Shown here: piece after piece, positions 5,639-6,958 of the stretch
Position numbering within the stretch: position 1 is the stretch's first letter
How the letters are laid out: every line of letters begins with the position of its first letter
UHGV virus genome: UHGV-0862314
Reading direction: 5' to 3' (one strand)
Length of the DNA: 11,943 nt
From: a virus
Translations under genes and position numbers: made by a program
The notes under the pieces: model-generated
What the model was told of the DNA's origin: nothing
Database searches by the model: none
Seen by the model: the letters and a program-made list of their open reading frames with translations, nothing else

Positions 5639-6958
5639 TCAAGCGATGAAGCGAGATTTGGTCCTTTTTTGTGCTGCTACTGTGCGAACGACCTCCTCTG
5701 GGTCCCTCGCCGCAGGCGTCATTGGTACACCTTGTGCTGCTCTTGCCTCTGCGGCATGAACCGCAGGATTTGTTGCTGCAGCGGCATCACCGGAGAATGG
5801 TGATGTTTCTGTTGGCGCAGTACCGGAGAATGGTGATGTTTCTGTTGGCGCAGTGGTCGCTCTCTGTGCAGATGTTTTATTGCCACTAATTATATTTGAT
5901 GCACCACGAACACCACGGGTAACGCCATTTATCAGGCCATGCGTAGCAATGTTAAGTCCGGCATTAATAGCGGCATTTTCGGCAAAATCACCCCGTTGAT
6001 TCGCCGCGTCAGCGAGAGAACCAATGACCATGTTTCCAGCTACTCCTGCTCCAGGAACAAGATAACCGCCTATTGACTCTCCAGCTTGCGCATAAGGGTC
6101 TGTCGGTCGATCTACTGGACGATAGACATCGTCCAAAACCTTGGGGCCACCAAGCCCCTGGCTGATTGCATTAATCAGACTTGCGCCACCCTGCAATACG
6201 TCAAATGGTATGTTTACCAGACCACGACCAGCCTGCTCTGCAATTTGCCCTGCACTTTGACCACCTGTGAGCCAATCGCCAGCTTGTTGCATCAATGATG
6301 GTTCTTCACGTGCTGGTTCATTATTGGCCTGATTAACTGTTTGTTGCTGAACAGGTTTCGGTGCGACAGAACTTACGGGTTGAGGTGGCTGCTGACTGGC
6401 TGCCTGCTGCTCAATCTGAGCAAATGGATTATTTGGGTCTGACTGCACACCTGATGCCGATACTTGTTCGGATGACTGTGCTTCCAGTTGTGCAAACGGG
6501 TTGTTAGGGTCTTGCTGAGGATGTACCTTTGCAGAGGTGGCGCGCTGTTCGACTGTTGAGTCTGTCACCGGGTCACCCGCCCATTGAGCAAAGCGATCAT
6601 CAACGTAACCGCGGCCTTCAGGTCCTGGCGTATATTCACCACGCTTTGCCTTCATAACGTTGCCGGGACCGTCGTGATAAGCCTGAAGAGCATCACGCCA
6701 GTTACCAAACTGCTGGTACATCTTTGCCAGATAGCGCGCGCCAGCGTCAGCCTGATATTCGGGGTTTTGCATTTGCTCATCGGTATAACCCATATCACGC
6801 CATGTCCCAGGCATGACCTGAGTCAATCCTACAGCCCCGGCGGAGCTTACTGCGGCAGGGTTGTAAGAAGACTCCTTGGCACCCAGTGCAGTCATCAACC
6901 CTTCTGGCACACCGTAACGTGCGCCAGCCTGCTCTAACAAATCACGGTAATTAGCCAT
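5639..6958 (-). CDS. N-terminal portion of a gp16-position ejection protein, with a lytic transglycosylase (SLT-like) domain and a Gln/Pro-rich repeat linker
   Basis: N-terminus carries an SLT-like motif ([28 protein letters not shown]...[12 protein letters not shown]). ATG at 6958..6956 directly follows the TAA of the upstream gene (translational coupling). Low-complexity Q/P-rich middle region with internal repeats. Confidence 0.7.
5799..5864. repeat. Exact 2 x 33-bp in-frame tandem duplication inside the ejection protein gene
   Basis: Unit ACCGGAGAATGGTGATGTTTCTGTTGGCGCAGT occurs at 5799..5831 and again at 5832..5864 with no mismatch. On the minus strand it encodes the duplicated peptide [11 protein letters not shown]. 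Confidence 0.95.

What the first reader, a model, noticed from the sequence alone, without database searches (positions are those of the whole stretch)
5639..5679. gp16-position ejection protein split at a 6-nt homopolymer; removing one base restores a single roughly 920-aa ORF
The 439-aa ORF ends at TGA 5639..5641, while the downstream ORF frame is already open from 5676 with no ATG before the annotated GTG at 5490. The two frames overlap across T6 at 5665..5670 (A6 on the coding strand). With A5 the reading becomes ...[20 protein letters not shown]..., joining both parts. This is either a pseudogenising mutation, a homopolymer sequencing error, or a slippage-prone site.
Basis: seen in the sequence. 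Interest (0 to 1): 0.5.

Follow-up and report, generated by a model that had tools for sequence, protein, structure and literature searches.

The report
One-base break in phage ejection gene
A P22-like phage gene for a 922-residue DNA-ejection protein is split by a single extra base that no related sequence carries, not even an otherwise identical contig from the same gut-virome project, so it is most likely a sequencing error or a private mutation.

Summary
The ORF geometry is as described. A 439-aa ORF ends at TGA 5639-5641, the downstream frame is open from 5676, and deleting one base gives a single 922-aa protein.

The break is not in the homopolymer. All 34 related loci that contain the site also have A6. 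The window's extra base is the A at 5662, which turns GGCC into GG-A-CC three bases downstream of the run.

The window has 0 mismatches over about 11.7 kb to contig CYGL01000464.1, from the 'HumMal Ma_F259' gut-virome assembly. That contig carries the gene intact at 922 aa. Homologues down to about 51% identity in Serratia, Klebsiella and Pluralibacter read straight through the junction motif (AAQ-K/R-x-P-N/D-LASSLD).

Both ends of the window are chimeric and show a k=127 signature. The left end is a fold-back at a 9-nt microhomology. The last 127 nt are anellovirus DNA.

A second one-base indel splits the tailspike at 2604. Both indels sit in the nucleotide flow adjacent to a long homopolymer of the same base (A6-GG-[+A]; A7-CC-A[-A]). 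This is where 454 or Ion Torrent phasing errors fall.

My estimates are: artefact about 0.6, real private pseudogenising insertion about 0.35, programmed recoding or a natural two-gene layout about 0.03 together.

The parts
5662..5662 (-). The single extra base (A on the coding strand, T on the + strand). It turns GGCC into GGACC and shifts the reading frame.
   Evidence: It is the only indel against Sf101, APC_JM3.2 and E. coli CFSAN064035 apart from a 33-nt in-frame repeat copy. It is the only real difference from CYGL01000464.1 over 10.4 kb. It is absent from all 34 loci that contain the site.
5665..5670 (-). A6 run (T6 on the + strand). This is the normal length, not the site of the lesion.
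   Evidence: The same A6 is present in 34 of 34 intact relatives. It is one of only six homopolymers of 6 nt or more in the window.
5639..6958 (-). Upstream ORF of 439 aa: 432 native residues plus 7 out-of-frame residues (TKSRFIA), then TGA at 5641-5639.
   Evidence: This product is not on record in any public assembly.
6629..6940 (-). N-terminal SLT lytic transglycosylase domain (residues 7-110).
   Evidence: Pfam PF01464, E 1.4e-25. PDB Slt70 and EmtA match residues 4-102.
5900..6298 (-). Segment shared with P22 gp16 (residues 221-353, 81% identical to P22 gp16 residues 53-189).
   Evidence: BLASTP E 1e-67.
5789..5854 (-). Perfect 33-nt tandem duplication ([11 protein letters not shown] x2), in frame. 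It is polymorphic among relatives and unrelated to the frameshift.
   Evidence: TRF finds 2.0 copies at 100%. Sf101 and APC_JM3.2 have one copy; CFSAN064035 and CYGL01000464.1 have two.
4189..5676 (-). Downstream open frame (495 codons). Native residues 433-922 start at 5661. There is no start codon before GTG 5490, no Shine-Dalgarno sequence and no promoter-like site.
   Evidence: It matches PHROG 6704, 770 and 21143 ('DNA transfer protein' / 'lytic tail fiber protein'). The 433-aa and 404-aa restart products are not on record.
2604..2605 (-). Second one-base indel in the window. One T of a TT is missing, which splits the tailspike into a 399-aa ORF (2576..3775) and a 354-aa ORF (1566..2630).
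   Evidence: The gene is an intact 736-aa CDS in E. coli 23CRST047 and in L042 and L046. Restoring the T gives 736 aa. The deletion is shared with CYGL01000464.1.
1..1330 (.). Fold-back chimeric left end. Positions 1-1330 are the sister contig read forwards, joined at a 9-nt microhomology (1322-1330) to the same contig read backwards. This produces a perfect 127-nt terminal inverted repeat (1-127 against 1322-1448).
   Evidence: The sister contig is collinear across this point.
11817..11943 (.). Exactly 127 nt of anellovirus DNA joined to the 3' end of gene 4. This is the chimeric right end.
   Evidence: It is 100% identical to CYGL01001478.1 positions 1235-1361, a contig encoding TT_ORF1 proteins. 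Three other assemblies continue collinearly into gene 4.

Best explanation
The locus is one gene. It is the gp16-position ejection (E) protein of a P22-like (Lederbergvirus) phage of the Sf101 type, 922 aa long. It has an N-terminal SLT lytic transglycosylase domain, a segment shared with P22 gp16, and a conserved C-terminal half.

In the window it is interrupted by one extra A at 5662, not by a change in the A6 run. As written, translation would stop after 432 native plus 7 foreign residues, and the C-terminal 490 residues would have no start of their own.

The most likely cause is a base-calling or assembly artefact in a contig assembled from an amplified gut-virome sample. The extra A falls in the first A flow after the A6 flow of a flow-chemistry read (454 or Ion Torrent type): A6, C0, G2, T0, [A0 called as A1], C2. 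In that case the real phage carries the intact 922-aa gene, as its otherwise identical sister contig does.

Shown here: single-gene ancestry, the position of the extra base, its uniqueness, identity to an intact sister contig, the chimeric contig ends, and the flow geometry. Inferred: that the reads came from a flow-based platform and that the base is absent from the DNA.
For: (1) The insertion is a singleton. GGACC occurs in none of 2 genome-contig hits, 24 viral-contig hits, 0 metagenome hits or 47 fetched loci. All 49 full-length hits in complete E. coli genomes are one base shorter than the window at this site. None of the products that the split would create is on record.

(2) CYGL01000464.1 has 0 mismatches to the window over 1322-11735 and 1-1330 and encodes one 922-aa SLT+PF26808 protein. 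The window's last 127 nt are 100% identical to an anellovirus contig of the same project, CYGL01001478.1. The window therefore comes from the same sample or family of samples ('HumMal Ma_F259').

(3) The difference from the sister contig is 0 substitutions and 1 indel. That is an indel-only error profile.

(4) Both one-base indels in the window (5662 and 2604) lie on 2 of only 11 positions that have the geometry 'homopolymer of 6 nt or more, short run of another base, next position'. In both cases the indel base is the homopolymer's base. The naive chance of this is about 1e-6, though the geometry was defined after seeing the data. Flow simulation puts both indels in the same-nucleotide flow one cycle from the long homopolymer, on either strand.

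(5) The contig has other artefacts that the sister contig lacks. One is a fold-back junction at a 9-nt microhomology, the classic form of a multiple-displacement-amplification chimera (established knowledge: Lasken and Stockwell 2007). The other is a phage/anellovirus junction. Each ends exactly 127 nt into known sequence.

(6) An A inserted between G and C does not duplicate a neighbouring base, so it is not a typical replication-slippage product (seen directly in the sequence).
Against: I could not see reads or confirm the sequencing platform. That this project used MDA plus 454 is my recollection only (could not retrieve the paper).

The 127-nt end signature suggests a de Bruijn assembler, which is more often used on Illumina reads. 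Non-homopolymer indel errors are rare with Illumina.

The tailspike indel is shared by both assemblies. It is therefore either a systematic error or a real mutation. If it is real, the phage is already defective and a second real lesion would be unsurprising.

The two indels have opposite signs (+1 and -1).
Confidence: 0.6

Rival explanations
1. The extra A is real. It is a very recent, private (or minority) +1-nt insertion that pseudogenises the ejection-protein gene in a phage or prophage lineage that is already defective. Particles could still be made and would appear in a virus-like-particle preparation, but they could not deliver DNA. [quoted passage not shown]
For: The tailspike frameshift at 2604 is shared with the independently deposited contig CYGL01000464.1 and is absent from three intact relatives. 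If that frameshift is real, selection on virion genes is already relaxed. An IS256-family transposase sits between the acyltransferase and integrase genes in the sister contig. Among substitutions private to this lineage, 2 of 4 in the C-terminal half of the gene are non-synonymous against 1 of 20 in the other virion genes (one-sided Fisher p about 0.06, computed by hand). The k=127 signature hints at short-read assembly, where such indel errors are rare. The requirement for gp16 is documented in PMC10883804.
Against: There are no substitutions at all relative to the intact sister contig over 11.7 kb, so the event would have to be extremely recent. The allele has never been seen elsewhere. The inserted base is non-templated. 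Its position in flow space matches a sequencing artefact. The contig carries other artefacts. The non-synonymous substitutions are shared with the intact contig, so they pre-date the insertion and say nothing about it.
Confidence: 0.35
2. The extra A is real and is bypassed by recoding. Either the ribosome shifts +1 on A_AAA_AGG (P-site Lys-tRNA re-pairs AAA to AAA while the A site waits on AGG), or RNA polymerase slips on the A6 run. Either route would give some full-length protein (QKGPNL...).
For: The sequence CAA AAA AGG ACC allows perfect +1 re-pairing of the P-site tRNA, and the shifted frame is the native one. Only about 12 gp16 copies are needed per P22 virion (abstract of PMC8402733, listed).
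Against: No relative needs a shift. In 34 of 34 relatives the same A6-AGG context is read in frame, and a +1 shift there would hit a stop about 11 codons later. The Lys-Arg motif is not conserved in distant homologues, which have QRN, QRD or QRR. There is no Shine-Dalgarno-like stimulator upstream. AGG is not rare in these genes (17 of 2,897 codons, 5.9 per 1000). A6 is shorter than the runs of about 9 used by known bacterial transcriptional-slippage sites (established knowledge).
Confidence: 0.02
3. This is a natural two-gene arrangement: a separate SLT enzyme and a separate C-terminal ejection protein.
For: N-terminal modules of this protein are swapped in nature. Close homologues of 754-777 aa lack the SLT domain.
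Against: No homologue is split at this point. Proteins of 836-935 aa from five genera run straight through the junction motif. The downstream frame has no start codon for 186 nt, no Shine-Dalgarno sequence and no promoter-like site. The two frames overlap out of phase by 35 nt with native coding sequence on both sides.
Confidence: 0.01

Closest known systems
CYGL01000464.1 (GCA_001292545.1, 'HumMal Ma_F259' virome assembly), 922-aa SLT + Phage_P22_gp16 protein
   Same: It has 0 mismatches to the window over about 11.7 kb. It has the same operon, the same 33-nt duplication and the same tailspike frameshift.
   Different: It lacks the A at 5662, so the gene is intact. It is collinear where the window has a fold-back, and it has no anellovirus tail.
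Shigella phage Sf101 'transglycosylase' Sf101_0013 (AII27837.1, 911 aa), the equivalent protein of Escherichia phage APC_JM3.2 (ATN92735.1), and E. coli CFSAN064035 WP_114569588.1 (922 aa)
   Same: About 99% nucleotide identity, the same position after the gp7 and gp20 homologues, and the same A6-GG context.
   Different: Each is a single uninterrupted CDS. Sf101 and APC_JM3.2 have one copy of the 33-nt repeat.
Salmonella phage P22 gp16 (609 aa), the E protein needed for DNA delivery across the inner membrane
   Same: Same gene position. Residues 221-353 are 81% identical to P22 gp16 residues 53-189. The Pfam family PF26808 is on record for the intact protein.
   Different: P22 gp16 has no SLT domain, and its C-terminal two thirds are not detectably similar by BLASTP. 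A 2022 review states that P22-like phages lack the transglycosylase module (PMC8954989). This Sf101-type lineage has one.
Phage T7 gp16 (1318 aa), an internal virion protein with an N-terminal lytic transglycosylase
   Same: The same functional logic: an ejected protein whose N-terminus cuts peptidoglycan and whose C-terminus works at the inner membrane (PMC8954989). PHROG 342 'internal virion protein with endolysin domain' matches residues 3-240.
   Different: Only the SLT domain is detectably related. It is not a member of the same family.
Homopolymer-phase (incomplete-extension or carry-forward) indel errors of flow-based sequencing, and MDA fold-back chimeras
   Same: The indel base equals the base of the nearby long homopolymer and lies exactly one flow cycle from it. 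The inverted junction at a 9-nt microhomology matches the described MDA chimera type.
   Different: The platform and amplification method were not verified here. The k=127 signature is unusual for 454-era assemblies.

Membership tests
P22 gp16-family ejection protein (Pfam PF26808 Phage_P22_gp16) | The gene lies directly downstream of the gp7 and gp20 homologues in the late operon. | tested here: met
   PF25688 (P22_gp7) at 8300-8992 and PF16928 (Inj_translocase) at 6959-8290 lie immediately upstream. The order is the same in P22.
P22 gp16-family ejection protein (Pfam PF26808 Phage_P22_gp16) | Sequence homology to P22 gp16 or a profile hit to the family. | tested here: met
   BLASTP gives 81% identity over 137 aa, E 1e-67. 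PF26808 is precomputed for the identical intact 922-aa product. The local Pfam copy gave no PF26808 hit.
P22 gp16-family ejection protein (Pfam PF26808 Phage_P22_gp16) | A single uninterrupted ORF encodes the whole protein. | tested here: not met
   In the window the ORF is broken at 5662. It is intact in every relative examined.
P22 gp16-family ejection protein (Pfam PF26808 Phage_P22_gp16) | The protein is packaged in the virion and ejected before the DNA. | not testable with these tools
   This needs virion proteomics or ejection assays.
SLT lytic transglycosylase domain (PF01464) | A profile match above the curated threshold, with the E-S motif region present. | tested here: met
   89.5 bits against a cut-off of 21.3, residues 7-110. 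Residues 4-102 align to Slt70 residues 453-560. KESSYNP is present in the sequence. The catalytic role of E29 was not tested.
Programmed +1 ribosomal frameshift site (prfB / Ty1 type) | Homologues also need the shift to make the full-length product. | tested here: not met
   34 of 34 relatives are in frame through the same site. Distant homologues are contiguous.
Programmed +1 ribosomal frameshift site (prfB / Ty1 type) | A slippery P-site codon followed by a slowly decoded A-site codon, with a stimulator such as an upstream Shine-Dalgarno sequence. | tested here: inconclusive
   AAA_AGG allows re-pairing. However, AGG is used 17 times in 2,897 codons of these genes, and there is no Shine-Dalgarno-like sequence in the 20 nt upstream.
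Transcriptional slippage site | A homopolymeric run long enough for efficient RNA polymerase slippage (about 9 or more A/T in known bacterial cases). | tested here: not met
   The run is 6 nt.
Flow-sequencing phasing error | The indel base is the same as an adjacent long homopolymer and falls in the neighbouring flow of that nucleotide. | tested here: met
   Flow simulation on both strands for both indels. Both lie on 2 of the 11 such positions in 11,943 nt.
Flow-sequencing phasing error | The reads come from a flow-based platform, and the allele is strand- or position-biased in the pile-up. | not testable with these tools
   No reads are available. The source paper is not held.

The most novel reading that the evidence does not exclude
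The extra A is real and the phage is still viable. A fraction of ribosomes shift +1 on A_AAA_AGG, or RNA polymerase drops one A on the A6 run. This would supply the dozen or so full-length ejection-protein copies a virion needs, alongside an abundant free SLT-plus-linker fragment. It would amount to a newly arisen recoding site caught at birth.
Probability: 0.02. Interest if true: 0.45.

Novelty: not a real feature. Interest (0 to 1): 0.07.

Why it matters
It matters mainly for annotation. The two ORFs should not be annotated as two genes or reported as a recoding site. The locus is an ordinary Sf101-type SLT-gp16 ejection-protein gene with one doubtful base.

The case also shows that a frameshift next to a homopolymer can be associated with the run without lying inside it, and that an otherwise identical sister contig can reveal this.

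If the base is real, it records only the decay of an already defective P22-like phage, which is a known and common process.

Tried and rejected
I looked for the insertion allele (GGACC context) in GTDB genomes, IMG/VR, JGI metagenomes, complete E. coli genomes and all fetched loci. It was never found.

I looked up the exact products that the split would create (439, 433 and 404 aa). None is on record.

I tested the homopolymer-length hypothesis. It is rejected, because A6 is the normal length.

I tested the two-gene architecture against homologues in five genera. It is rejected.

I searched for a restart signal (start codon, Shine-Dalgarno sequence, promoter) for the downstream half. None was found.

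I tested for relaxed selection using substitutions private to the lineage. The test is uninformative, because those substitutions are shared with the intact sister contig.

I tried to identify the window's last 128 nt in E. coli genomes, phages and plasmids, without a match. A metagenome pattern scan then identified them as anellovirus.

I tried to confirm the sequencing platform of the source study from the literature and failed. The paper is not held and the reviews do not state it.

Full report
**What the window is.** The minus strand carries the late operon of a P22-like phage (genus Lederbergvirus). The genes in order are:
- gp10 (10298-11716, PF11134)
- an Sf6-type tail needle (9450-10298)
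- gp14 (8995-9453)
- gp7 (8300-8992, PF25688)
- gp20 (6959-8290, PF16928)
- the gene under study
- a short Arc/Mnt region
- a tailspike with a P22 head-binding domain and an SGNH/GDSL esterase domain

The closest named phages are Shigella phage Sf101 and Escherichia phage APC_JM3.2, at about 99% identity over the gene.

**Checking the observation.**
- A 439-aa ORF runs 6958..5639 and ends at TGA 5641-5639.
- The next frame is closed by TAG 5679-5677 and open from 5676 down to 4189.
- Its first possible start is GTG 5490.
- An A6 run lies at 5670-5665 on the coding strand.
- Removing one base in the 35-nt overlap yields a single 922-aa ORF.

**Where the lesion really is.** In Sf101 and APC_JM3.2 the gene is one CDS of 911 aa. 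In E. coli CFSAN064035 it is one CDS of 922 aa. Aligning these with the window shows that the intact genes also have A6. They read CAC AAAAAA GG CC AAATC, where the window reads CAC AAAAAA GG A CC AAATC.

Over the whole gene, the only frame-changing difference is this A at 5662. The other length difference is a perfect 33-nt in-frame tandem copy at 5789-5854, which some intact relatives share. All 34 fetched loci that contain the site have A6-GGCC. Eight of these were found by similarity or protein look-up rather than by a pattern that presupposes A6.

The run has its normal length, the extra base is three positions downstream of it, and the native junction reads AAQKRPNLASS.

**Is the single ORF ancestral?** Yes. 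A database search with the repaired protein finds contiguous proteins of 836-935 aa carrying both SLT (PF01464) and PF26808. They come from Escherichia, Serratia, Pluralibacter, Klebsiella and Cronobacter. In the alignment, the junction motif (V/I)R..AAQ(K/R)xP(N/D)LASSLDxLxINPQ is read straight through down to about 51% identity. No homologue is split there.

The downstream half has no start codon for 186 nt, no Shine-Dalgarno sequence before GTG 5490 or ATG 5403, and no promoter-like site.

**What the protein is.**
- Residues 7-110 form an SLT lytic transglycosylase domain (PDB Slt70 and EmtA).
- Residues 221-353 are 81% identical to P22 gp16 residues 53-189.
- The C-terminal half matches PHROGs annotated as 'DNA transfer protein'.
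- The intact product carries the Pfam family Phage_P22_gp16.

All three P22 E proteins are needed for DNA injection (PMC10883804). As written, the window would make a 47-kDa SLT-plus-linker fragment that lacks the conserved C-terminal 490 residues, which is presumably non-functional.

**Provenance, found by following exact proteins.** The window's gp10 sequence occurs on NCBI contig CYGL01000464.1 of GCA_001292545.1. The window has 0 mismatches to that contig over 1322-11735 and over 1-1330. The sole real difference is the base at 5662, and on that contig the gene is a single 922-aa CDS.

A table in PMC10888812 names the CYGL01 project 'Assembly HumMal, Ma_F259'. I take this to be the human Malawi gut virus-like-particle virome data set.

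The window's last 127 nt (11817-11943) do not belong to the phage. They are 100% identical to an internal stretch of CYGL01001478.1, a contig that encodes anellovirus TT_ORF1 proteins. Three other assemblies continue from the same point into gene 4.

The left end is also chimeric. Positions 1-1330 equal the sister contig read forwards. They are joined at a 9-nt microhomology (1322-1330) to the same contig read backwards. This gives a perfect 127-nt inverted repeat that starts exactly at base 1.

Both ends stop exactly 127 nt into sequence that exists elsewhere. This is the signature of a k=127 de Bruijn assembly. An inverted junction at a short microhomology is the classic chimera of multiple displacement amplification (established knowledge). 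The window is therefore most likely a second assembly of reads from the same sample, or from the same family of samples, as the sister contig.

**A second frameshift, and a shared geometry.** The tailspike is also split, into a 399-aa ORF (2576..3775) and a 354-aa ORF (1566..2630). One T of a TT at 2604/2605 is missing relative to intact 736-aa genes in E. coli 23CRST047 and two other assemblies. Restoring it gives 736 aa. This deletion is shared with CYGL01000464.1.

The window has only six homopolymers of 6 nt or more. Only 11 positions have the geometry 'long homopolymer, short run of another base, next position'. Both indels lie on such positions, and in both the indel base is the homopolymer's base: A6-GG-[+A], and on the other strand A7-CC-A[-A].

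Simulating the TACG flow order on the wild-type sequences gives the following.
- Site 1 reads A6 C0 G2 T0 [A0] C2. A false signal in the first A flow after A6 produces exactly GG-A-CC.
- Site 1 on the other strand has an empty T flow between G2 and C2, one cycle before T6.
- Site 2 reads A7 C2 G0 T0 [A2]. An under-call of that flow produces the observed deletion.

This is where incomplete-extension and carry-forward errors of flow-based sequencing fall. Genuine replication slippage changes the run itself. In addition, an A inserted between G and C duplicates neither neighbour.

**Weighing the explanations.** Several points favour an artefact:
- The allele is a singleton.
- An otherwise identical contig from the same project lacks it.
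- The difference from that contig is 0 substitutions and 1 indel.
- The flow geometry fits.
- The contig has other artefacts.

Other points favour a real mutation:
- I could not see reads or confirm the platform.
- k=127 assemblers are mostly used on Illumina data.
- The tailspike indel is present in two assemblies. If it is real, the phage is already defective and a second lesion would be tolerated.

The excess of non-synonymous private substitutions in the C-terminal half (2 of 4 against 1 of 20) does not help. Those substitutions are shared with the intact contig and so pre-date the insertion.

I put the artefact at about 0.6 and a real private or minority insertion at about 0.35.

**Recoding.** CAA AAA AGG ACC would allow a +1 shift with perfect AAA-to-AAA re-pairing into the native frame. 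However:
- No relative needs a shift.
- In the wild type, the same shift would run into a stop.
- The Lys-Arg motif is not conserved in distant homologues.
- AGG is not rare in these genes, at 5.9 per 1000 codons.
- There is no upstream stimulator.
- A6 is short for transcriptional slippage.

I give recoding about 0.02.

**Novelty.** Nothing here is new biology. SLT-gp16 fusion proteins of this type are already annotated in Sf101 and in many E. coli prophages. This allele has 49 full-length hits among 5,426 complete E. coli genomes. The frameshift is either not real or an ordinary private pseudogenising mutation.

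Noticed in passing
window 2604-2605 (ORFs 2576..3775 and 1566..2630, minus strand): The tailspike gene is also split by a one-base indel: one T of a TT is missing, next to GG-T7. The gene is an intact 736-aa CDS in E. coli 23CRST047 and two other assemblies. The deletion is shared with the sister contig CYGL01000464.1.
   Followed up: yes
window 1-1330, 1322-1448: The left end is a fold-back chimera. The acyltransferase region is inverted relative to the sister contig and joined at a 9-nt microhomology. This gives a perfect 127-nt inverted repeat (1-127 against 1322-1448) that begins at base 1. 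The acyltransferase gene therefore runs off the window on the minus strand.
   Followed up: yes
window 11817-11943; L050 1235-1361: The last 127 nt are anellovirus (TT_ORF1) DNA, identical to CYGL01001478.1, fused to the 3' end of phage gene 4. This points to a human virome sample and a k=127 assembly graph. The anellovirus contig itself has a fragmented ORF1.
   Followed up: yes
window 5789-5854: A perfect 33-nt in-frame tandem duplication ([11 protein letters not shown] x2) lies in the Ala/Thr/Pro-rich linker. Relatives have one or two copies. One Logan contig (L033) ends inside the duplication.
   Followed up: partly
window 1566-3775; window 1-1061 (minus strand); L032 8280-9434: The tailspike has a P22 head-binding domain followed by an SGNH/GDSL esterase domain instead of a beta-helix glycanase. 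It is followed by an Acyl_transf_3 gene. This could be an O-antigen deacetylase receptor-destroying spike paired with an O-acetyltransferase for lysogenic conversion. The C-terminal 354 aa have no Pfam hit.
   Followed up: partly
window 1255-1330; L047 9582-10862: The first 76 nt of an IS256-family element (Transposase_mut, 402 aa) are present. In the sister contig this element is inserted between the acyltransferase and integrase genes.
   Followed up: partly
proteins P0002, P0013; L037-L045: The N-terminal module of this ejection protein is swapped among E. coli prophages. Variants of 754-777 aa lack the SLT domain, and 797-aa variants have SLT with a different middle part. A 2022 review (PMC8954989) says P22-like phages lack the gp16 transglycosylase, which these sequences contradict.
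   Followed up: partly
L030 6462-7694 (E. coli 203740); L031 9338-10237 (E. coli CFSAN064035): Other prophages show independent damage to the same gene. One copy is truncated and annotated as a pseudogene. Another prophage has a second partial copy that lacks the N-terminus.
   Followed up: no
window 10921 (gp10 codon 266): This is the only non-synonymous substitution among the 20 lineage-private substitutions that fall in the intact virion genes tabulated (Gly to Cys in gp10). The other 19 are synonymous.
   Followed up: partly
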